This document shows, one piece after another, positions 12,730 through 37,763 of a stretch of DNA of 64,000 bases. A program made the position numbers and the translations under genes. Position 1 is the first letter of the stretch. Each line of letters starts with the position of its first letter. The DNA is taken from contig VRMN01000001.1 of assembly GCA_008690995.1 (NCBI GenBank), forward strand, positions 2,852,001-2,916,000, written 5' to 3'. The DNA is from Porphyridium purpureum (Eukaryota). Under the pieces are notes generated by a model that had not been told where the DNA came from, made no database searches, and saw only the letters and a list, made by a program, of their open reading frames with translations.

Positions 12730-13464
12730 TTATCGGCCCTTCATGGCGCGCTCTCGCATGTACTGCTCGAACAAGCTGCCACCCGCCGCCGCCGGCTTGG
12801 ATCCGTTGCTGCTGCTGCTGCTCGCGCCATTTCCGTTCGACGCTGGCGGCGCGTACGGCAGACCAGAGGACGATCCTGCACGGTACGACGGCTTGCTCAG
12901 CGAGTCCAGGTAGCTGGACGAGCTCTGGCTCGCCGGCACAGACGAGGCCGGAGCAGAGTTCCTGGATGGAATTGGCGCGGACGACGACGGAGCTGGGGCC
13001 GAGTACGACGGCGCCGACGAGGCACCGCCACGCTTCCTCATGTACTCCTCGAACAGGCTACCGCCTGCCGCGGGCTTTGCCGCCGCTGGGGCCGGGGCCG
13101 AATACGATGGAGCCGAGTACGACGGAGCTGACGAGGCCGGCGCGGCACCGCCACGCTTCCTCATGTACTCCTCGAACAGGCTGCCTCCGGCCGCGGGCTT
13201 TGGCGCCGCTGGGGCCGGGGCCGAGTACGACGGAGCCGAGTACGACGGCGCGGCGGCAGCCGGCGCGGCGCCGCCCTCCTTGCGTGCTCGCTCGGCCATG
13301 TAGTCAGCGAAAGACTTTGGCGCGGTGTGAATTGCCGTTTGCTTGGCCTTTGGGTCATTTGGGTCAATGTACGTCGGGTTTGGGTCGCGCGTCGGCTTGT
13401 CGAAACGCACCACTCGGCTCCTTGCCGGGGCCTTGCCCACACCAATTGCTCCAACAAACGCCAT
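12730..13464 (-). CDS. Low-complexity Ala/Pro/Ser repeat protein with 4 (L)FE(E/Q)YMR(K/E)R-type motifs, probable plastid protein (short paralog)
   Basis: MAFVG start; 46-aa block shared with 15304-17124; internal 123-bp duplication; upstream TATA box; function unknown. Confidence 0.85.
   Translation of the reverse strand: MAFVGAIGVGKAPARSRVVRFDKPTRDPNPTYIDPNDPKAKQTAIHTAPKSFADYMAERARKEGGAAPAAAAPSYSAPSYSAPAPAAPKPAAGGSLFEEYMRKRGGAAPASSAPSYSAPSYSAPAPAAAKPAAGGSLFEEYMRKRGGASSAPSYSAPAPSSSAPIPSRNSAPASSVPASQSSSSYLDSLSKPSYRAGSSSGLPYAPPASNGNGASSSSSNGSKPAAAGGSLFEQYMRERAMKGR
13022..13257. repeat. Two near-identical units at 123-bp (41-codon) spacing inside the short repeat-protein gene
   Basis: gcaccgccacgcttcctcatgtactcctcgaacaggct... 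occurs at 13022 and at 13145. Confidence 0.85.
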
Positions 13465-13596
13465 CCTGTTCCTTTTCCCTTGCGCGGTCACTTCCTCCAA
13501 ACCCCCGTCACTTCCTCTCCCTTCTCCACCCTTCGACTCCTATCCTCTTTCCCCGCACGTTCTCCCGACCGTCACGCCCAACGTTACCGCGGCTTC

Positions 13597-13603
13597 TTTT
13601 ATA
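13597..13603 (-). promoter_or_regulatory. Putative TATA box (TATAAAA) of the short repeat-protein gene
   Basis: CCTATAAAAG on the minus strand about 130 bp upstream of ATG 13464 in a GC-rich context. Confidence 0.55.
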
Positions 13604-15303
13604 GGCAGAATGGCGTCGTGGCTGGCGGTGCTGCGTGCGTGATCGCAGATTCCGCCCGTCTCCGTACCAAAACGCGCACGTTCTGCTAGGCCGCGCGTCG
13701 GTAGCCACAAACGCCTTGTGGCGTGCATGGGAGGGGGACGCTTGGGCGAACTGCGGCAGGCTCGCGGCGCAATCTCCCGTGCCGCCACGCGCGCAATCAC
13801 GAATTCGGCACCGCTTTGCTACTGCCGCGCGGCTTTCCCTTCTGGACGCGTCCATTTCACGTCCAAACGCTCGCAGCGCCCGAATTCGACCCATTTTACC
13901 AGCACCAGCGCTCACGCGCCCTGCGTCTGTGAACCTTCGCGCCACAGTACACCCCCTTCTCCCCCGCCTATTTTCTCTCTCACCGTTCCATCCGCTTTTT
14001 CCGTCTTCGTGGGCGAGTCGCTGCATCTGTGCGGTCGTGATTGTCGGGCACACACACACACACGCATAAAAGCACACAACGCTGTGGGTGTCGTGTGTGC
14101 ACAAGAAACGGGCGGCAGCCAATCACACAACACATCTCCATTCATCCTTCTATCCACACACACAGCCGCCGCGTCTTACTCATACCGCTCTCGTTCTTCG
14201 ACATCCCTTGTTTTGGAAGCTGTTTGGGCGGACGCACAAAAACCTCATCCACCCATCCACGCTTTTTTTTTTTACACATGATTATCACTAGCATTACCAC
14301 GACCCCATCTGTCAAGGACCGCCAATAATAAAAAAACGCACACGCCGCCGCGTTTGAGCCTACAGTTCAGAAGCAGAACCGACACGCCGAAAAAGCTCGA
14401 ACCAGCCACCACCAGCAGCAGCAGCAGCCACCTGCGCCGCCGCTTCGTCGTCACACAGCGCCACGCGCCAAATGCGGCTTGCACGAAACGCGCGTTCGAT
14501 CGCTGTGTATTCGTTTATGTGGTGTGCGGTGTGCGATGTGCGGTGTGTCTCCGTGCAATCTGCATCAGCGCAAACTAAACGACCACGCTGTGTGAGTCCC
14601 TTTTCAGATCAAGATCACGTTAGGGTTTCGTGCGTGCTGTGTGTGTGTGTGTGTATGTGCGGGGGAGATTGCGCACACACGCGCGCGTCATCACAAAGCG
14701 GTTGGCGGGGGTAGGACGCGTTTGTCATAGCAACGTGCGGCGGTTTTGCGATGATGATGAAAAAGTCGTGACTGTTACTAGTGTGGTGGTGGGGGGACTC
14801 CGTGTGGCGGGCGGCTATCTGGCGGGGGCCCGCGCAGATTGACGTGCACACTGTGGGGCGTGAGACGTGCAGTGCAGGCTGTTTTGATACGCGCATGGGT
14901 GCGTGCCGCATGGAAATGGAGTGTGCGTTTTTGTGTGTCTCCGCGCAGCAGCCCAAAATCGACGTGTGTGTGCGCTGAATGTGCGTCGCTCGCAGCAGGC
15001 TGGGCAATCCGGTCGTTTCATGAAACGGAGAGTTAGTCTCGCAGCAAGAGGGAGGGTGAGTGTGAGTATTTATGGTAACGGAGCACGTGGTCGCGGGGAC
15101 AGTAATTGCGGTCGAGATTGCACACGGTCGACGCAGTCTGCCTGGACGTCACGCGCAAGCCGCCGCTTTCTGTTCCGGTCAAAGGCAGCGCCCGATCGCC
15201 GCGCATTAGCCTCGGAGGAACGGTGCGTCGGAGTTGAGGGCACACGCGAGGACGCAGAGCGAGACGGAGGAAGAGACAGAGGGAAAGAGGAACGCGGTGC
15301 GAC

Positions 15304-17124
15304 ATGAATGACTCGGTCGAGTCTATGATGATGTCCGGCGTCGCATTCATGCCCGGCAGTGCCGTGCCGCTGGGGGGTGGCCGCTACATCGTCAAAGGCC
15401 CGGCGTCGAGGACGGTGCGGTACGACAAGCCCACCCGCGACCCCAACCCGTCGTTCATCGATCCAAACGACCCCAAGGCGAAGCAAAAGGCGATTCACAC
15501 AGCGCCAAAGTCGTTCGCAGACTACCTGGCCGAGCGGGCTCGCAAGGAAGGGACCGCGCCTCCGGCCGCGGCCGCGGCTGCGCCAGCGCAGAACGGTAAC
15601 GGCTACAAGCCCAGCTCCGTGCAGGTGGCGCCGAGCGCTCCGAAGCCGGCTGGTGGCGCCATGTCGCCATACGAAGAATACATGGCGAAGCGCAACGGAG
15701 GCGATTCCGCCTCTGCGGCCTCGCCCGCCCCGCCCGCGCCTGCGGCAAAGGCCGGCGGCGCAATGAGCCCGTACGAAGAGTATTTGCAAAAGCGACGCGC
15801 ACAAGAAAGTGGCTCGGTGCCCGCGTACACAGCGCCTGCGGCCGCTTCGCCGCTGCCGTCGCAGTCCAGAGCGGCTCCTGCGGCAGCCAAAGAGCTCAGC
15901 CCCTATGAAGAGTACATGCGGAAACGGGCATCGCAGTCGCAGGCTCCGGCTGCCGTTCCGCAACCCGCCGCGACATCTGCCGCGCCTGTGAAGAAGGAAG
16001 CCGAACTCAGCCCCTACGAAGAATACATGAGGAAGCGCAATGGTGGTGGTTCTGTGACCGGGTCGACGGCGCCTCCGGCGCCAAAGCCGTACACGCCGCC
16101 GGCCGCGCCAAAAGCACCAGCGAGCAGTGGAAGCGCGACATTGTATGAAGAATACATGCGTGCGCGCCAGCAAAAGGAAAGTGGCCGTTCCGCGTCGTCG
16201 CCCGCCGCGTCGTATTCGCCGCCAGCAGCGTCCTACACACCGCCAGCAAGTCCGGCGAGCCCGCAACCGGTGACTGGTAATTTGTTTGAGGATTACATGA
16301 AACGACGTGCTGAAAAGGAGTATGCGCGTCCAGCGACGGGCACGGCACCAGCGCCCTCGGCGCCTCGAGCCTTTGCGCCCCCCGCAGCACCTTCCGGTGG
16401 TAGCCTATTTGAATCTTACATGCGCGAGAGGGCTGCGAAGGAGGCCGGTAGTTCGCAGGGAACGAACGCACCAGGCACTCGGGCCGCACCAGCACCCACA
16501 AAATCAAGCGCGTCTGAAACGAGTCTCTTTGATTCGTACATGCGCGAGAGAGCGGCGAAGGAGGGCGGGGCTGGCAGCAGCAGCAGCAGTAGTAGCAAGC
16601 CAGTTTCGCCGACAGCGGCACCAGCAGCGGCACCGGTTGCGGCGCCAAAGTCGGCGCCAAAGTTAGCAGCGGTGAGTGGTGGCAGCTTGTTCGAGTCGTA
16701 CATGGCTGAACGTAAGAAGAAGGAAGCCGCAGGCGGCGGTACAACCTCTGCGTCCAGCACACCCAGCGTTCCGAGGGCCGCTCCGCCTGCCTCTTCCTCT
16801 ACTTCTTCTTCTTCGAGCTCCAGCCCGTCGTTCTCTGCTCCGTCATTTTCCAAGCCGTCATTTTCGACGCCATCGATGCCCAAGCTCTTTGACTTTCTGA
16901 TTCTTGAAAAGGCGGCCAAGTCGTTCGCGAGTGAAATGCAAAAGTCGATGACCCCTTCGACTAGCAGCACAAGCAAGCCATACAAAGCAAGCAGCAGTAG
17001 CACAGCTGGGGATGGCTCCGGCGTGGCAGAGATTCACCAGGCGCTGCTTCTGATCCTAGTGGCGATGGCCATTGGCGTGCTGGCGGTGTACACGAGCTCG
17101 GGTCTTTCAGACTTCCGACCCTAA
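15304..17124 (+). CDS. Low-complexity repeat protein with 10 helical EEYMRKR-type motifs and a C-terminal TM helix (long paralog)
   Basis: 606-aa ORF; shared N-terminal block 15415-15552; motifs every 34-54 aa; hydrophobic ALLLILVAMAIGVLAVY at about 17041-17091; true start may be 15325 (MMMSGVAF). Confidence 0.87.
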   Translation: MNDSVESMMMSGVAFMPGSAVPLGGGRYIVKGPASRTVRYDKPTRDPNPSFIDPNDPKAKQKAIHTAPKSFADYLAERARKEGTAPPAAAAAAPAQNGNGYKPSSVQVAPSAPKPAGGAMSPYEEYMAKRNGGDSASAASPAPPAPAAKAGGAMSPYEEYLQKRRAQESGSVPAYTAPAAASPLPSQSRAAPAAAKELSPYEEYMRKRASQSQAPAAVPQPAATSAAPVKKEAELSPYEEYMRKRNGGGSVTGSTAPPAPKPYTPPAAPKAPASSGSATLYEEYMRARQQKESGRSASSPAASYSPPAASYTPPASPASPQPVTGNLFEDYMKRRAEKEYARPATGTAPAPSAPRAFAPPAAPSGGSLFESYMRERAAKEAGSSQGTNAPGTRAAPAPTKSSASETSLFDSYMRERAAKEGGAGSSSSSSSKPVSPTAAPAAAPVAAPKSAPKLAAVSGGSLFESYMAERKKKEAAGGGTTSASSTPSVPRAAPPASSSTSSSSSSSPSFSAPSFSKPSFSTPSMPKLFDFLILEKAAKSFASEMQKSMTPSTSSTSKPYKASSSSTAGDGSGVAEIHQALLLILVAMAIGVLAVYTSSGLSDFRP

Positions 17125-30454: not shown

Positions 30455-31669
30455 TTAGAGTCCAAATGGAGGGTTCCCCGGGGAGCCCTGGTTCGTTGGA
30501 ATATAGTAGGAACACTCAAACTCTTCCGTGCAGGCCGGCGGCGCAAGGCACACTGTCTCAATTGGGGCGCACGGAATAGTACCGTCCGGATCCGGAATGT
30601 ACTGCACAATCATTTCGCCAGGAACACAGCTCGACTCCACTTCAAGGGCAATGCAGTCAAGATCCACTCCACAGTCGAGCGTCGATGCCAGATCCGTGAA
30701 GGTACGGAGAATGCCTTCGAAGAAGAAGCGAACATAATCAACGCCTTCAACGCCCAACTCTCCGTTTGCACCAGTCTCCAGGTTCACGAGCGAGAAAATG
30801 CCCAGGGCCGAATCTTGGGAAATCAAGTTGTCCTCACCGCCAAAGGCCAACTGATCGGCAGTGGCAAAGCCAGTGAGACCCACGCCAGGTGGGTCAGCGT
30901 GAATAAGCTCATACGAGAAGTCTGGCGGCGGACCGGACTGGAACAGCTTGAAGAAGTACTTGAAGCCACCGCCGGTACCAACACTGGAAGCATAAAGCAC
31001 GCGATCACAAGCAATGGCCAGATCACCAGCGCGATACGTGAACGACAGAGGACCCAGCGGAAAGTTCTGCGGGTTCATTGGATCCGTGGTGACGTTACGA
31101 TGCTGGTCGACAGTCGTCCTGAACAGGAAGTTGGCGGTCGCACGGTCCAGATAAGTCAACTGGCCCACAAGAATACCATTCGGCTGCTGCCTGCCTTCGC
31201 GAATGTAGGCATACATGTACAGAGTCTGATCGAATCCGGCGCCAGAGATTTCAGTCTCCGGAAGGGTGGTCACAAACTGGATTGAGTTGGACACCAAGTT
31301 CACCAAGCACAGGCGGGTCATCGTGTCACCGAAAGTGTCCCACGACGCAAAGAACAGACGCGCCTGTCCATCGTACGCTGCGGCATTCGGCGCGAACAAG
31401 TTGAACTGCCCAACCACTGGCACAATTCCGTTCGTGTAGCCGTAGCAGTTGAATGGGAACTGGGTTACCTGCGTGGTTTCGAGCACGCTCATGTTTGCCA
31501 AGAGTGTCAATGAAGGATCCGCGGCTGTCGAGTTGATCGTGAAAAACGACTTGTCATTCACCCTCTGCTCGACGGCATAGACCAGACCGACGGTCTGGGC
31601 GGATACCATTGCGGCGGATGCCGCCACGACGGCGCACAGCGCCAGCGCAATCATATGCATGCGCACCAT
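30455..31669 (-). CDS. Secreted beta-rich (propeller-like) protein with Cys-rich C-terminus, paralog 1
   Basis: Signal peptide MHMIALALCAVVAASAAMVSA; shares LYASSVGTGGGFKYFF, LTGFATADQLAF and TGANGELGVEGVD with two neighbours. Confidence 0.85.
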   Translation of the reverse strand: MVRMHMIALALCAVVAASAAMVSAQTVGLVYAVEQRVNDKSFFTINSTAADPSLTLLANMSVLETTQVTQFPFNCYGYTNGIVPVVGQFNLFAPNAAAYDGQARLFFASWDTFGDTMTRLCLVNLVSNSIQFVTTLPETEISGAGFDQTLYMYAYIREGRQQPNGILVGQLTYLDRATANFLFRTTVDQHRNVTTDPMNPQNFPLGPLSFTYRAGDLAIACDRVLYASSVGTGGGFKYFFKLFQSGPPPDFSYELIHADPPGVGLTGFATADQLAFGGEDNLISQDSALGIFSLVNLETGANGELGVEGVDYVRFFFEGILRTFTDLASTLDCGVDLDCIALEVESSCVPGEMIVQYIPDPDGTIPCAPIETVCLAPPACTEEFECSYYIPTNQGSPGNPPFGL

Positions 31670-31777
31670 CTTACTACCCCGCTCCCGTGCCACTACGAAT
31701 CTCCCCGACAAGCCCTCAGCCTTTCCCTCTCCCTGTAAAGAATGAAGCACTTAACCTTCACGCAACGTCCTGTGTTG

Positions 31778-31785
31778 CTTATATA
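31778..31785 (-). promoter_or_regulatory. Putative TATA box of secreted paralog 1
   Basis: TATATAAG on the minus strand about 110 bp upstream of ATG 31669. Confidence 0.5.
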
Positions 31786-32861
31786 TGCCGAGAGATCCCG
31801 GTGCATGCTCGGTGGTTCGAATACTCGTTGTGACGCTTCTGTGAAAAACTAGCTCCTTTTCAACGGTGGCGCGTGTCCACGCGACGCGATCTGTGGAAGA
31901 GGCAATTATGGCGCGGTCGCGCAAGTAAGTACACGCTCAAGCCGATGACGCTGGTTTAAGGATCTCCTACTAAAACGGACATGTTTTTATGCATAAACAA
32001 GACACGCAGCGCCAACGGCGAAGACAAACTTGGCCGTTTGTGTGGTGGTGATGGTAGTGGAGAGGGAGGGTTTGTGTTCCTGTTTCGGGGAAACCCCCGA
32101 TAAAACGGGGGAAATCTAGTATCACAACTGGCATGGAACGACGGGAATTAAATTCATAATCGTCTTCGAACCAACACGCATTCGATTCGACGGCATGCTA
32201 CTGCGTTCCACGAATAGAAACATATCGCGCTGTGGGTATTGTTGGCGCCAGCGTGGAGCGCTGGCGCGCAGTGTCTCCAGCACAAAGGCTGTGATTGGCT
32301 GGAGCGGAAGCCTCGTGCGCTGTGATTCGATACGCCGGTAAATGCTGGGTTTTGATTGGCGCAGCCGGCGCACAAGTGGCCCTGGCTCTTTGCCCAGTCT
32401 GCCGGTCTGGAGTGGTCATGCGCTAGCTCACGCCCACGTTTCCAACGCACGCCTTACGCCCCGCGCAGGGTTGGGCGGGCCGTCTGTGTTGGAGAGTCTG
32501 GAACCGCTGCGCGTCGGATTCCAGCACCGCGCGGCGCCATGCTCTCGCGCGCCGTTCGTGCTGCAATGGACACGACGTGGAGTGCGGCGGCGTGACCAGC
32601 ACAGCTGCGTGATCGATACCCGCTTCCCCTCACTGTCACTGACCCACACGGAACTCGCACACATGCGGGCGTTGACACCCGATGCGGAAAGAAATTTCGG
32701 GGCTCGATCGTCTTGGCGCATCGGATGACACGCACAAGCAATCAGCCGTGGCGCTCGCTAGCATCAAAGCGGGGAGATGGCCACACTGCCGTGTGAAGTA
32801 GGTCTGGCTCACCCAGTCGTAAAAAGCAGTTTCTGGCGCAAATGAACGCCGTGGTCGGCTT

Positions 32862-34073
32862 TTAGTCTGCAGCAAGAACATAAAAGATACAATCAACGGT
32901 ATCCTCGCCCTCGCACATACCTGGCAAGCGGCAGCGCCCGTCGACCGCGACGCATCGAATGTCGCCGCCTTCAGCAGGCGTCAGAATCGGCAACACACGA
33001 TCTTCGCAAGGATCTACAATTTCGGTTTCGACACAGGCCCCGACTAAGCCGCAGTCCCTGAACGAGGCAAGATCTGCAAAGGTGCGCAGCATACCCATCT
33101 CCGTGAGCCGCACGAAATCGACGCCTTCCACGCCCAGCTCGCCATTCGCACCAGTCAAGCGATTCACAACGCTAAAGATCCCCCGCTCGCTGTCCTGGCT
33201 GATCAGCCGTCCAGACGAATCAAACGCCAATTGGTCCGCCGTTGCAAACCCGGTGAGCGAGCTCACTGGACTTTGCCCGTCGCTCGGGTCAGCATGGATA
33301 AGTCTATATGCAAAAGACGTTGACGAATTCTCCTCGGTGAAGTAGTCAAGGTCAATGCTAAAGAAGTACTTGAAACCACCACCTGTGCCTACGCTACTTG
33401 CGTACAATATTCCGTTGCAGTCGACTGCCATGTCGCCCCCTCGAAATGTAAACAGCAGCTCGGCCGCCGGCGCATTAGGGTTCGTTGTCACATTCCGAAA
33501 CAAGGTGTTCGTGGTTCGATCGACGACTGTTCCCGTTGCTCTGTCCAGTCGAATGAATTGCAAAATGAGAATTCCTGCCTCTGTTTGCTCTTTGCCTTCG
33601 TCAATCCAAATGTACTGATACGTCTTGGCGTCAAAGGTAGCGCCTAGCACAATGTCGCCGAGAATGGTTGAGTATTCAAACGTATTGGTCAAGACCGAGT
33701 AAAAGCAGAGTCTGGACATTGTATCCCCAAACCGGTCAAACGCGGCAAAAAAGAGGCGCGCCTCTCCATCATATGCCAGGCCATTGGGCGAGAATTCATA
33801 CAAGGGCCCAGTGGCGGTCGCTCCGTTCACGTAACCAAAGCACCGATTCGGAAATCCCGCGGGGTCATTTGCCGCTGCCTGCGTCATGTTTGCGACCAGC
33901 GTCACGGTCGGTTCGATTTCAGCGCCGGCCGAAAAATCCAGTGCGAAAATGTTCTTCTGCACAGGGTCTCGCTCAATGCCGAAGATGATGCCGAGGTTCT
34001 GCAGTCCGTGGACGCTGTGCATCCTCAACGCCAACGCGCACAGCGCAAGCAAAATCACAGCACATCTCGCCAT
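32862..34073 (-). CDS. Secreted beta-rich (propeller-like) protein with Cys-rich C-terminus, paralog 2
   Basis: Signal peptide MARCAVILLALCALALRMHSVHG; colinear similarity to paralogs 1 and 3. Confidence 0.87.
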   Translation of the reverse strand: MARCAVILLALCALALRMHSVHGLQNLGIIFGIERDPVQKNIFALDFSAGAEIEPTVTLVANMTQAAANDPAGFPNRCFGYVNGATATGPLYEFSPNGLAYDGEARLFFAAFDRFGDTMSRLCFYSVLTNTFEYSTILGDIVLGATFDAKTYQYIWIDEGKEQTEAGILILQFIRLDRATGTVVDRTTNTLFRNVTTNPNAPAAELLFTFRGGDMAVDCNGILYASSVGTGGGFKYFFSIDLDYFTEENSSTSFAYRLIHADPSDGQSPVSSLTGFATADQLAFDSSGRLISQDSERGIFSVVNRLTGANGELGVEGVDFVRLTEMGMLRTFADLASFRDCGLVGACVETEIVDPCEDRVLPILTPAEGGDIRCVAVDGRCRLPGMCEGEDTVDCIFYVLAAD

Positions 34074-34194
34074 GGTGTTTGTGGGCCGCTGCCTCCGCCC
34101 CACAGCCCTCTCCCTGTGTCACAGCGACCTTTGGCCTGACACAATCTCTGCGCAGGCAGGTCGAAGCGTGAAGGAAGAGAGGTCATGCCTACAA

Positions 34195-34203
34195 CCTATA
34201 TAG
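34195..34203 (-). promoter_or_regulatory. Putative TATA box of secreted paralog 2
   Basis: CTATATAGG on the minus strand about 125 bp upstream of ATG 34073. Confidence 0.45.
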
Positions 34204-35116
34204 CAGACAGCCTCCTCACCACTGTGGTCGCGCGCGAAAATAAATGAGCGCAGAATCGTTTGACGCCGGCGAGACAACCGCTCTGTCTCTTCCACAGCGC
34301 GCGCTACAGTTCACCCGAGAGCCAGAACCGTCCACGTCGCCTCCTTCAAAAACACCCGCAAAAAATGAGAAGCGTGTACGTCGTTCCACAAAGCGCAAGC
34401 AGCAACGGACCCTATGCAGGGTGGTTCGATTCCGTGCGCCCACAAGTGTGCAGGAGTTCTCCGTTTTGAGAGAGAATGAGAGACGCGTACACGCCAGCAT
34501 GGATTGACGGCTGCTTACCGGGACTCTGTTCGCGCCACCCCGCTTTCTCCTGTTTGCCATTGCGGACTGTGCACCCTGTTCTCCTCGTAAGGACAGTCAA
34601 TGAAGTACGCCTCAGCTATGGGTGGGACATCAGGATTCGACGCGGCAGAGCTTTCACTTGGGGAGAGTGCAAGGCTCCTCTAGTTGCGTGGCTCTCTATT
34701 CTCATTGATTGACTGGCTGTTCCTCCTCCAGCGAATCTTTTGATCGCGCCTACCTCATCTCAAGCAATTTCTGAATGGTCTCAGGGCCCGACACGCCAAG
34801 CAGGCCAACAGTCTTGGTCGTCTTGGCCGCCGTCGCCGTAAATCCTGGGCGCTCACCATGGAGGCGGATACTGGAAGCTCAAGACCGAAAATGTCGGCCA
34901 GGCCCAAGTAAGAACGCAGTCCTGCCGCGTCTTCGGTGAGGTACATCCACTTGTCGGGATTTTCTCCCATCAGGCAGGCAAGTGTGGCAGAAGCGGATCC
35001 CTTGCCACAATATTCGGACTATGTTGCGTCTGACTTGGTATGTCCTTGCTCTATGAAATGAATCGAATCTGGCCTGCCAAACGCGCTATATCCGAGCGCA
35101 CGCATCAACGCCCGTG

Positions 35117-35152
<36 letters not shown>
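35117..35152. repeat. (CAT)12 microsatellite
   Basis: Perfect trinucleotide run read directly from the sequence. Confidence 0.95.
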
Positions 35153-35154
<2 letters not shown>

Positions 35155-36337
35155 GAGGCTTCAGTCATAAGGCACACGAACAGCGTGGCGCCGTCCTCGC
35201 AGCTGCGTATCGCGCTACCTAGGCTGTCCATTTTTTGTCGACGAAGCCGCGTGATACTCGGATGAATACTTTTGTTTGTGTTGGTCAATCCTGCAGCGAG
35301 TACGCTAGGCGTCTTCAGGAGGCGTGGAAAGATCTCATCCATCCAGCATGCGTGCAAAACGCTCATCATGGCTTGGCCATGGTTGCTATGATTTAGGCAC
35401 GGTCGCCCGAAGAGCGACAGCCGTAGGCCAGCGTATCAATGTCGGCGAGCATAGGCCCTGTGTCTAAACCCAGTGCGCGCCAAAAATTGGCCACCATTTG
35501 CGAGCCTCCAGTAGATCTCGGGTTGAGCACAACCACTGGTTATTCTATTGAGGCCGGCAAGTGGTGAACGAGTGGAAACAGCGTCATTGCAGCACGCGTG
35601 GAGGCGATGCAGACGTCGAGGTCCAAGAAGAACCAAAGCAAACTTTATTGGCAGTACAGCGATCGGATGCGTGACCGTTGCCATCCACGGAGACGCCTGC
35701 TGCGTCCATACCAATCATGGATGGCTCCATGCGTCGCCTCTCATATGGGATGGCGGGCGTAACTCGACTGCATGGCGCGCCCCGTCTTTGACCTTGACAT
35801 CGGTACCCAGTGGTTATAGACTTGCTCTACACTGAACCGCACTGCTTCATTATTGCCAAGCCACGGCAGCAGCAGCTTTCATGACACCCCGAGCTTGGTC
35901 GCCTGTTGGCCTTGAGCAAGCCTCACCATCGGCTTGACTGTACCTACCGGACTTGGTAGTGTACGTCTGCTGACACCATGGCTTACACCGTTGTAATTCC
36001 GAGGTAGCCGGCGGGAGCACGGAGCACCTGTCGAGTGCCATGTTGTGGAGCCAGCGATGCCATGTGGAATTCTGCACACGCAAGCATTATTATGTGCGGC
36101 GGGTCTTGTTGGTGTTTGGTGAGTAATCCTCATCGTGAAGCTCGTGACCTGCTGTTGCGCCGAGACGAAGGCTTCGACGCTGGGCGCACGGCCAGCTGCC
36201 ATCGACAACACAGAGTGACAAGCGTTTCCTGCTTTGAATTTGTACGCGAGATGTCTCGACATGTGGAACCTTGATTCAAGCAGCGTACAACAAGTTGTGA
36301 AGTGTACTTGCCCGCTCGTGTTCGGCAGCCTAAAGGT

Positions 36338-36345
36338 TATATAAA
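36338..36345 (+). promoter_or_regulatory. Putative TATA box of secreted paralog 3
   Basis: TATATAAA about 155 bp upstream of ATG 36501. Confidence 0.55.
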
Positions 36346-36500
36346 TGCGGAAGCGACTGCCTCTAAGCACAAAGTCCCGAGGGATGAAGAAGAGTCGCAG
36401 AGTAGCAAAGCAAACATTCAAGAGATAACGAGAACCGGGAGCGAAAGTGAACTCGACAAGAATAAGGCATAGTCTCTTATCCACTCGACGAGTGGCTGCC

Positions 36501-37763
36501 ATGATGTACCCAAGCAAGCATGGTGTGTTGGCTCCGATCATGCTCGTCTTCTGCTTTGTGTACTTCCATGTCCGAAGCATCCAGGCCCTACCAAATGCAG
36601 GTGTGATTTACGCCATTGAACGACACCCAGAACAGAAGAACATTTTCGCCCTGGACTTTTCCGCAGGCGCAGGAATGACCCCAGGCGTCACGTTGATTAC
36701 AAACATGACCCAGGCGGCGGCAGACGATCCGGAAGGTTTCCCGATGCAATGCTTTGGATACGTAAATGGCGAGACAGGCACAGGAGAGCTATATGAGTTC
36801 TCTCCAAACGGACTAGCGCATGATGCCGATTCGCGTCTGTATTTCGCAGCGTTGGACCAGTACGGCGGGACCTCATCGCGCCTTTGCTTTTATTCGATGG
36901 TGACCAATTCCTTCGAGTTCGCTGCAGAACTTGGCGAAGTCGTCATGGGTGCCACTTTCGATGCCACATTGTACCAGTACGTCTGGCTTGATGAGGGCAA
37001 GCACCAGTCGGAGGCCGGCATCCTCGTTTTACAGTTTGCGCGACTGGACAGGGCGACGGGTCAGGTTTTGGAGCGAGTGACTAATACCATGTTCCGCAAT
37101 GTGACAACAGACCCGAACGCACCGGCGGCCGAACTGCCGTTTACCTTTCGCGGGGGCGACCTCGTGATTGACTGCAACGGCGTTCTGTACGGCAGCAGCG
37201 TCGGGACCGGCGGCGGATTTAAGTACTTCTTTGCCATCAATTTGAATCACTTTGCAACGAGCCCAGGAAACGTATCCTCCATGCCGTACGAGTACCGACT
37301 CATCCACGCAGACACGAGCGATGATCCTAGCCAGGTGAGTACATTGACCGGATTTGCGACGGCAGATCAGCTGGCGTTTGACATGATGGAGAGGCTAATT
37401 AGCCAGGACAGCGAGCGAGGCATCTTCAGTGTGGTGGACCCTGGGACGGGTGCGAATGGTGAGCTAGGCGTAAAGGGTGTAGACTTCATCCAACTCACTG
37501 AGATGGGTATGCTGCGCACTTTCGCCGACCTTGCCTCGACGCTGAACTGTGATGCGCGCGTCATTGCGTCAACGTGCAGTCAGACTCAAATCATGGACCC
37601 GTGTGAGGACGAGATGGTCGATGTGATGATGCCCGACGAGGGCGGTGAAATCCAGTGCGTGCTTGTGCAAGGGCACTGCCGTCAGGCAGACTCGTGCAAC
37701 GAAGAGCACATGGTGGCTTGTGACTACTATGTTTCCATGGGCGAATGGGAGTCCGTGTTTTGA
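36501..37763 (+). CDS. Secreted beta-rich (propeller-like) protein with Cys-rich C-terminus, paralog 3
   Basis: Signal peptide (VLAPIMLVFCFVYFHVRSIQA); long identical stretches with paralog 2 (QKNIFALDFSAGA, LYEFSPNGLA, LTEMGMLRTFADLAS). Confidence 0.87.
   Translation: MMYPSKHGVLAPIMLVFCFVYFHVRSIQALPNAGVIYAIERHPEQKNIFALDFSAGAGMTPGVTLITNMTQAAADDPEGFPMQCFGYVNGETGTGELYEFSPNGLAHDADSRLYFAALDQYGGTSSRLCFYSMVTNSFEFAAELGEVVMGATFDATLYQYVWLDEGKHQSEAGILVLQFARLDRATGQVLERVTNTMFRNVTTDPNAPAAELPFTFRGGDLVIDCNGVLYGSSVGTGGGFKYFFAINLNHFATSPGNVSSMPYEYRLIHADTSDDPSQVSTLTGFATADQLAFDMMERLISQDSERGIFSVVDPGTGANGELGVKGVDFIQLTEMGMLRTFADLASTLNCDARVIASTCSQTQIMDPCEDEMVDVMMPDEGGEIQCVLVQGHCRQADSCNEEHMVACDYYVSMGEWESVF

What the first reader, a model, noticed from the sequence alone, without database searches (positions are those of the whole stretch)
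12730..17124. Head-to-head pair of sticker-and-spacer repeat proteins: candidate red-algal pyrenoid Rubisco linker plus membrane tether
Seen in sequence: two divergently transcribed paralogs with plastid-transit-like starts (MAFVG; MSGVAF). Both are built of Ala/Pro/Ser/Gly spacers interrupted by a recurring amphipathic helix, (S/T/N)(L/P)(F/Y)(E/D)(E/S/D/Q)Y(M/L)x(K/E/R/A)R. There are 4 copies in the 244-aa soluble protein and 10 in the 606-aa protein, spaced 34-54 aa apart; only the long one ends in a TM helix. Established: pyrenoid matrices form by phase separation of Rubisco with disordered multivalent linkers (EPYC1 in Chlamydomonas, CsLinker in Chlorella, PYCO1 in Phaeodactylum) that are unrelated in sequence but share this architecture. 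In Chlamydomonas the same Rubisco-binding motif is reused on membrane proteins. Inference: this locus may encode an independently evolved linker/tether system for red (form ID) Rubisco; I am not aware of a characterised red-algal linker. An alternative partner is another multimeric plastid complex such as the phycobilisome.
Basis: partly seen in the sequence, partly recalled or inferred. Interest (0 to 1): 0.92.

Follow-up and report, generated by a model that had tools for sequence, protein, structure and literature searches.

The report
Red-algal PYP1 multivalent pyrenoid linker candidates
Two neighbouring genes of a red alga encode floppy proteins carrying 4 and 10 copies of a short helix taken from an old algal protein family of unknown function (PYP1), and the company this family keeps in other algae and in algal viruses suggests the helix likely grips the CO2-fixing enzyme Rubisco, which would make the pair the missing glue and membrane anchor of the red-algal pyrenoid.

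Summary
Observation confirmed: intronless divergent paralogs (244 and 606 aa), Ala/Pro/Ser/Gly spacers, 4 and 10 copies of an [FY]xxY[ML]xxR helix; only the long one ends in a membrane helix. The sticker is therefore not a new invention but an expansion of an ancient monovalent protein that also exists in pyrenoid-less algae. In haptophyte-plastid lineages the module is a portable tag at either end of class I and II aldolases, a CbbX-like activase, an LCIB-type carbonic anhydrase and a bestrophin, all classes known from pyrenoids, but more often of pyruvate kinase and a peroxidase, which are not. One giant-virus lineage encodes a three-helix version head-to-head with a PyShell pyrenoid-shell gene. 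No PDB chain matches, so it is not a modelled phycobilisome or photosystem subunit. Best reading (0.6): Rubisco-binding pyrenoid linker plus thylakoid tether. Binding, location and condensation are untested.

The parts
12730..13464 (-). Short paralog, 244 aa, soluble, basic (pI 10.0), one PYP1 module plus three extra helices; candidate matrix linker
   Evidence: peptide AAGGSLFEEYMR listed by mass spectrometry as 'Protein PYP1', P. purpureum FVE85_6364 / A0A5J4Z470 (PMC10456242 table); RNA contigs
13270..13416 (-). PYP1 module of the short protein (aa 17-65), ending in helix 1 (13285-13317)
   Evidence: model: extended Pro-rich arm then helix 36-49
13150..13182 (-). Helix sticker 2 (aa 95-105)
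13027..13059 (-). Helix sticker 3 (aa 136-146)
12745..12777 (-). Helix sticker 4 (aa 230-240), at the C-terminus
13007..13252 (-). Recent 123-nt tandem duplication (90% identical) that made stickers 2 and 3
   Evidence: D2
13465..15303 (.). 1.8-kb divergent intergenic region; the short gene's RNA contig reaches to 14216 in one run
15304..17124 (+). Long paralog, 606 aa (possible start at 15331), pI 9.7, one PYP1 module plus nine extra helices and a C-terminal membrane helix; candidate membrane tether
   Evidence: RNA contigs; N-terminus also alignable to metagenomic relative P0004
15409..15555 (+). PYP1 module of the long protein (aa 36-84), ending in helix 1 (15508-15540)
15664..16716 (+). 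Nine further helix stickers (15664-15696, 15766-15798, 15898-15930, 16009-16041, 16138-16170, 16279-16311, 16402-16434, 16522-16554, 16684-16716) in low-confidence spacers
16882..16950 (+). Additional predicted helix (aa 527-549), unrelated to the sticker
17017..17097 (+). Predicted transmembrane helix (aa 572-598) followed by an 8-residue tail

Best explanation
The two genes are multivalent expansions of the PYP1 module whose terminal helix likely binds red-type (form ID) Rubisco, so the soluble 4-helix protein would cross-link Rubisco into the pyrenoid matrix and the membrane-anchored 10-helix protein would tie that matrix to pyrenoid-traversing thylakoids. Shown: gene structure, paralogy, repeat counts, PYP1 membership, transcription, a peptide of the short protein in print, repeated helix-only duplication in other lineages, fusion of the module to unrelated plastid enzymes at either end, and a viral copy next to PyShell. 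Inferred: plastid import (short MAF-type presequences), Rubisco as partner, condensation, thylakoid identity of the membrane. The ancestral ~45-aa single-copy protein would be a monovalent Rubisco ligand predating pyrenoids, co-opted several times by multiplication (linker) or fusion (address tag).
For: (1) Architecture: 4 and 10 predicted helices in disordered basic spacers; spacings 34-54 aa against 52 and 48 aa quoted for EPYC1 and CsLinker (PMC13655443 section 6). (2) The helix alone is the unit duplicated elsewhere: 37 extra helices against 0.2 expected from shuffles among 392 module-bearing proteins (redundant cluster members included); 57 of 392 are multivalent; named cases Hanusia, Baffinella, Rhodomonas, Phaeocystis. 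(3) Portable tag: of 120 listed long relatives (149 found), 82 carry a Pfam cargo domain; 26 of 82 are classes reported in pyrenoids: class I aldolase 11, class II aldolase 12, CbbX-like 1, LCIB-type CA 1, bestrophin 1. Pyrenoid location of FBA I/II in Phaeodactylum (PMC3245544) and of CbbX, BST1/2 and theta-CA2 in Thalassiosira (bioRxiv 2023.10.26.564148). Tagged aldolases are in Emiliania huxleyi records, a tagged TPI and peroxidase in Chrysochromulina records. The tag is C-terminal on the CbbX-like protein and bestrophin, so it is not only a borrowed transit peptide, and it is better conserved than its cargo in pyruvate kinase (0.89 vs 0.72) and peroxidase (0.89 vs 0.79) fusions. (4) Two giant-virus MAG contigs encode a presequence-bearing 3-helix member head-to-head with a PyShell gene (PF25192, E 1.6e-85). 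(5) Porphyridium has a naked pyrenoid crossed by a dense thylakoid network, with no known linker (PMC13655443). (6) All 11 named red-algal relatives are monovalent; in the 3 named florideophytes (pyrenoid-less, recalled) the M/L position of the helix is Gln.
Against: No binding, location or condensation data. The single-copy module is strongly conserved in algae without pyrenoids (Diacronema/Pavlova lutheri, PMC5853415; Chondrus, Gracilariopsis, Agarophyton, Compsopogon, pyrenoid status recalled), so its primary role is not pyrenoid building. 54 of 82 cargo fusions are not classes I could tie to pyrenoids (peroxidase 25, pyruvate kinase 15, fasciclin 4 and others; terms absent from the two papers checked), and aldolases are general stromal enzymes; I could not tell whether the tagged class II aldolase is the FBAC1 or FBAC2 type. 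The CbbX, LCIB, bestrophin fusions are one cluster each from metagenomes (2 of 4, 3 of 4 and 1 of 1 members carry the module), and at least one other singleton (P0206) is a clear transcript chimera. The viral pairing is a single event: 2 of 10 viral PyShell loci, near-identical to each other. Red algae recalled as pyrenoid-bearing (Pyropia, Porphyra, Rhodosorus, P. aerugineum) yielded only monovalent members in my lists. The short protein's presequence is only about 17-20 aa.
Confidence: 0.6

Rival explanations
1. The module binds another abundant stromal or thylakoid-surface partner (for example FNR/photosystem I, ATP synthase or a Calvin-cycle enzyme), and the pair is a soluble and a membrane-anchored scaffold for that partner.
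For: Conserved in pyrenoid-less algae; most fusion cargo is redox or glycolytic (peroxidase 25, pyruvate kinase 15, glutaredoxin, BolA, peroxiredoxin); 4 of 10 helices of the long protein begin Ser-Pro-Tyr-x-x-Tyr, which resembles the start of the plant Tic62/TROL FNR-binding repeat (recalled, not tested).
Against: No PDB chain matches the proteins, the module or the helix profile; the family consensus is a helix, not the Pro-rich FNR motif as recalled; does not explain bestrophin, LCIB-type CA, CbbX-like cargo or the PyShell neighbour.
Confidence: 0.25
2. LEA-like hydrophilic stress protectant, or a self-associating scaffold whose helices stick to each other, with the haptophyte fusions mostly by-products of borrowing the PYP1 gene's plastid presequence.
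For: PYP1 was likened to LEA proteins on physicochemical grounds (PMC4501640); 71 of 77 scored fusions are N-terminal.
Against: Near-invariant residues over about 38 positions across three phyla; C-terminal fusions; module better conserved than cargo; retention by a virus.
Confidence: 0.11
3. Phycobilisome linker or phycobilisome-thylakoid tether.
For: Red alga with phycobilisomes; soluble plus membrane-anchored pair; flexible chains can stay unmodelled in cryo-EM maps.
Against: No match among PDB chains (chains of unknown residues are not in that library); the same module is most abundant in haptophytes, which lack phycobiliproteins (established knowledge); no hit in GTDB prokaryote genomes, cyanobacteria included.
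Confidence: 0.04

Closest known systems
PYP1 (Pyropia yezoensis, Swiss-Prot C0HJG2) and its unnamed family
   Same: The ~40-aa module (TRD...DPNDPK.KQ.AI...SF.[DE]Y) after a plastid-type presequence; 52% identity over the 50-aa query; the short protein is itself filed as 'Protein PYP1'.
   Different: PYP1 is an 81-aa single-module protein of unknown function; these paralogs replace the GKGFGGGEA lead-in, add 3 or 9 helix-only copies in long spacers, and one adds a membrane anchor.
Chlamydomonas EPYC1 and the Rubisco-binding motif system (RBMP1/2, SAGA1/2)
   Same: Short helices in disordered spacers about 40-50 aa apart; same motif on a soluble and a membrane protein; motif reused as an address tag, including on a bestrophin-type protein in both systems (RBMP1 as bestrophin is recalled).
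   Different: No sequence similarity detected; that motif is confined to Volvocales (PMC10473226) and binds green RbcS; PYP1 spans several phyla and pyrenoid-less species; binding unshown here.
Chlorella CsLinker
   Same: Helical stickers with disordered spacers; if the wide conservation reflects the partner, a conserved RbcL site is plausible as for CsLinker.
   Different: Unrelated sequence; form IB Rubisco; no tether paralog.
Phaeodactylum PYCO1
   Same: Basic (pI about 10) disordered repeat protein for form ID Rubisco.
   Different: Different stickers (KWSPRGGS, GTGYNP, C-terminal Trp helix; PMC10288592), about 80-aa repeats, no homologues outside that species; none of these motifs is in the window's proteins.

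Membership tests
PYP1 family | Conserved TRD..DPNDPK.KQ.AI..SF.[DE]Y module | tested here: met
PYP1 family | Plastid-type presequence ahead of the module | tested here: inconclusive
   MAF-type start as in other window genes and red-algal PYP1s, but 24 aa before TRD against 37-47 in complete red-algal members; no predictor available
Pyrenoid Rubisco linker (EPYC1/CsLinker/PYCO1 kind) | Repeated short structured stickers in disordered spacers at 40-60 aa | tested here: met
   one 94-aa gap in the short protein
Pyrenoid Rubisco linker (EPYC1/CsLinker/PYCO1 kind) | Expressed and abundant | tested here: inconclusive
   RNA contigs and one published peptide show expression; contigs cannot rank abundance
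Pyrenoid Rubisco linker (EPYC1/CsLinker/PYCO1 kind) | Sticker binds Rubisco | not tested
Pyrenoid Rubisco linker (EPYC1/CsLinker/PYCO1 kind) | Localises to the pyrenoid matrix and phase-separates with Rubisco | not testable with these tools
   needs microscopy and reconstitution
Pyrenoid Rubisco linker (EPYC1/CsLinker/PYCO1 kind) | Multivalent form restricted to pyrenoid-bearing species | tested here: inconclusive
   11 of 11 named red-algal relatives monovalent whatever their pyrenoid status; multivalent forms in cryptophytes and prymnesiophytes; only the best 120 of 214 and 120 of 149 hits were listed
EPYC1, CsLinker or PYCO1 sequence families | Sequence homology to the known stickers | tested here: not met
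   no PDB match at E<=10 for either protein; profile matches insignificant; PYCO1 motifs absent
RBMP-like membrane tether | Same sticker on a membrane-anchored protein | tested here: met
   predicted TM helix aa 572-598 with 10 stickers; which membrane is untested
Modelled phycobilisome or photosystem subunits | Sequence identity with a solved chain | tested here: not met
   chains of unknown residues are not searchable
Myb DNA-binding domain (PF23082) | Full three-helix domain | tested here: not met
   hit is three 19-residue stretches on profile positions 48-66 of 70, summed over the repeats

The most novel reading that the evidence does not exclude
PYP1 is an ancestral, red-plastid-wide Rubisco-binding peptide: a single copy in all red algae, multiplied independently into pyrenoid linkers and tethers in Porphyridium, cryptophytes and haptophytes, used as the pyrenoid address tag of haptophyte enzymes, and captured with PyShell by giant viruses to remodel the host pyrenoid. 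Pyrenoid linkers of these lineages would then share one origin instead of being purely convergent.
Probability: 0.4. Interest if true: 0.96.

Novelty: new variant of a known kind. Interest (0 to 1): 0.86.

Why it matters
A 2026 review states that molecular detail on rhodophyte pyrenoids remains sparse and lists no red-algal, cryptophyte or haptophyte linker (PMC13655443). These two genes give concrete, small, testable candidates in Porphyridium, and the family link extends the same test to coccolithophores and other haptophytes, major marine CO2 fixers. A sticker conserved across phyla and older than pyrenoids would explain how pyrenoids arise repeatedly, give a motif for predicting pyrenoid proteomes from sequence, and provide parts for condensing red-type Rubisco. 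A conserved monovalent Rubisco ligand would also be a lead for the missing form ID assembly or maintenance factors discussed in PMC9833100; that last step is speculation.

Tried and rejected
No whole genome is held for the window, so further paralogs in this species were not counted. The ESM Atlas did not answer. PDB sequence searches gave nothing significant and Foldseek with the 50-aa model found no match (the model is one helix and an arm, so weak). Pfam Myb hit rejected as a repeat artefact. No relative in GTDB genomes (pattern-based, limited sensitivity). Cluster member P0159 is an unrelated protein grouped with P0017 and was dropped. Singletons P0206, P0241, P0253 were discounted as possible chimeras. 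Contig depth was higher over the short gene than the long one in 3 of 3 RNA-type runs and flat in the DNA run, but contigs cannot rank genes, so this is not used. The 123-nt skip in the DNA run may be repeat collapse. Mapping the tagged E. huxleyi class II aldolase to FBAC1 or FBAC2 failed for lack of matching identifiers. Earlier scan findings: none returned. Literature searches for a red-algal or haptophyte linker, for the motif strings, for PYP1 and for viral PyShell found only PYP1 bioactive-peptide papers and reviews; the library lacks most subscription journals.
Full report
Observation. The window holds two divergent, intronless ORFs, 12730-13464 minus (244 aa) and 15304-17124 plus (606 aa), 1.8 kb apart between an MFS transporter and an IFRD-like gene. 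They carry 4 and 10 copies of an [FY]xxY[ML]xxR motif; shuffles give at most 2 and 3 copies of an even looser pattern, and no other copy exists in the 64 kb. Spacing is 34-54 aa in the long protein and 45, 41, 94 aa in the short one. Spacers are 56-61% Ala/Pro/Ser/Gly and both proteins are basic. A single-sequence AlphaFold2 model shows a helix at all 10 motifs of the long protein, low-confidence spacers, an extra helix at 527-549 and a hydrophobic helix at 572-598. RNA contigs cover both ORFs, and a published table lists the peptide AAGGSLFEEYMR, which is in the short protein, under Porphyridium purpureum 'Protein PYP1', FVE85_6364 (PMC10456242, passages and table row seen). That fixes the likely organism and shows translation.

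The first helix ends a 49-aa stretch shared by the paralogs under purifying selection (42 of 49 identical, 18 of those with different codons). Searched alone, it finds 168 clusters at 50% identity. It is the mature part of PYP1 of Pyropia yezoensis (C0HJG2), known only from bioactive-peptide work and described as function-unknown and LEA-like (PMC4501640, passages seen). Named relatives come from red algae (11 taxa), cryptophytes and haptophytes; no diatom or brown alga was named among listed hits, but most hits are unnamed and lists were cut at 120 or 150, so absence is not shown. No prokaryote genome hit was found. All 11 named red-algal members are single-module proteins of about 80 aa when start codons are trimmed, as is that of Diacronema lutheri, reported to lack a pyrenoid (PMC5853415, passages seen). 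So the sticker is old and not pyrenoid-specific; the multiplication is what is special here.

How the family is used elsewhere. First, the terminal helix is duplicated on its own in other lineages: 37 extra helices against 0.2 expected in 392 module-bearing proteins, 57 of them multivalent (redundant members included); the Hanusia copy is almost letter for letter the window's. Second, the module is a portable tag. Of 120 listed long relatives, 82 carry a cargo domain: peroxidase 25, pyruvate kinase 15, class II aldolase 12, class I aldolase 11, fasciclin 4, HbpS-like 2, and single clusters including a CbbX-like AAA protein (TIGR02880, 402 bits, below its 459 cut-off), an LCIB-type carbonic anhydrase, a bestrophin, FBPase/SBPase and TPI. 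Of 77 that my pattern scored, 71 are N-terminal and 6 C-terminal (5 were not matched by the pattern). Aldolases I and II are pyrenoid-located in Phaeodactylum (PMC3245544, passages and supplementary table S3 rows seen; its .doc supplement unreadable), and CbbX, bestrophins and theta-CA2 in Thalassiosira (bioRxiv 2023.10.26.564148, passages and section 8 seen). Against this, 54 of 82 fusions are classes I could not link to pyrenoids, the three most telling fusions are single metagenomic clusters, and some singletons are chimeras. Third, two near-identical giant-virus MAG contigs (22-27% GC) encode a presequence-bearing module plus two helices head-to-head with a PyShell gene. Only 2 of 10 viral PyShell loci have it within 8 kb, and a syntenic relative (L034) lacks it, so this is one event. 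PyShell is absent from red algae, so it cannot be the partner of the window's proteins.

Mechanism. I commit to a Rubisco-binding helix (0.6). The short protein would cross-link form ID Rubisco into the matrix; the long protein, anchored by its tail, would present ten stickers from the thylakoids that cross the naked Porphyridium pyrenoid (morphology from PMC13655443, passages and section 6 seen). This parallels the Chlamydomonas motif that serves as linker, tether and address tag (PMC10473226, passages seen). Structure, family, fusions and gene neighbourhood are shown; import, partner, condensation and membrane identity are inferred. Rivals: another stromal or thylakoid partner (0.25), LEA-like or self-associating protein with hitch-hiking fusions (0.11), phycobilisome linker (0.04; no PDB match, and the family thrives in haptophytes).

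Comparison and novelty. It is a member of the PYP1 family. It works like EPYC1/RBMP if the inference holds, but is not a member of the EPYC1, CsLinker or PYCO1 sequence families (PYCO1 stickers from PMC10288592, parts 1-3 of 6 read). Ten literature searches found no red-algal linker, no physiological role for PYP1, and no report of the tag or of viral PyShell; subscription journals and preprint supplements were not visible, and interactome tables there could bear on this. Other papers seen as passages: PMC13159521, PMC12343563, PMC9833100, bioRxiv 2023.10.25.564039. Pyrenoid status of Chondrus, Gracilariopsis, Agarophyton, Compsopogon, Pyropia, Porphyra, Rhodosorus and cryptophytes, and the Tic62/TROL resemblance, are recalled, not from calls.

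Verdict. Real, expressed, and more interesting than first read: a new variant of the pyrenoid linker/tether kind, built from a conserved cross-phylum module, directly testable with short peptides and purified Rubisco. Interest 0.86.

Noticed in passing
L025:3869-4732 (-), L027-L034 (IMG/VR giant-virus contigs): Ten viral loci encode PyShell homologues with signal-peptide-like starts; five were confirmed as PF25192 (E 4e-83 to 6e-89). No paper on viral PyShell was found. A candidate viral auxiliary gene for remodelling the host pyrenoid.
   Followed up: partly
P0124, P0132, P0134, P0135, P0143, P0154, P0116, P0020: A group of Asn/Lys/Ile-rich PYP1 members with 2-4 helices that align with the viral copy; may be further giant-virus genes, context not available.
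   Followed up: partly
P0162, P0024, P0048, P0151 and others: A second repeated motif, A[KR]xAW[LMV], occurs in 13 of 392 module-bearing proteins, up to 8 times in one 941-aa protein that also has two PYP1 modules; possibly a second sticker and a haptophyte linker candidate.
   Followed up: no
module-bearing proteins: The short xTRD[PSA] element is also repeated on its own (24 observed, 0.6 expected), suggesting the module has two separable contact elements.
   Followed up: no
P0284, P0294, P0306: The three named florideophyte members have Gln at the helix's M/L position; one clade only.
   Followed up: no
window 13299 and 15563: Strain variation: a base change at 13299 gives Met to Leu in helix 1 of the short protein in 3 of 4 runs, staying within the motif; all 4 runs lack 6 bases at 15563 in an Ala run of the long gene.
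   Followed up: no
short protein aa 184-191; L031:3740-4687, L032:7737-8681: An isolated YLxxL-type segment lies in the 94-aa gap of the short protein; similar segments occur in the disordered N-termini of two viral PyShells. May be chance.
   Followed up: no
P0180, P0194, P0197, P0210, P0222, P0075, P0078: A recurrent cargo of unknown function with a conserved Cys-containing C-terminal domain; no Pfam or PDB match. A possible unrecognised pyrenoid protein.
   Followed up: partly
window 30455-37763: Three or more related secreted-looking ORFs of about 400 aa (30455-31669, 32862-34073, 36501-37763) form a local paralog cluster.
   Followed up: no
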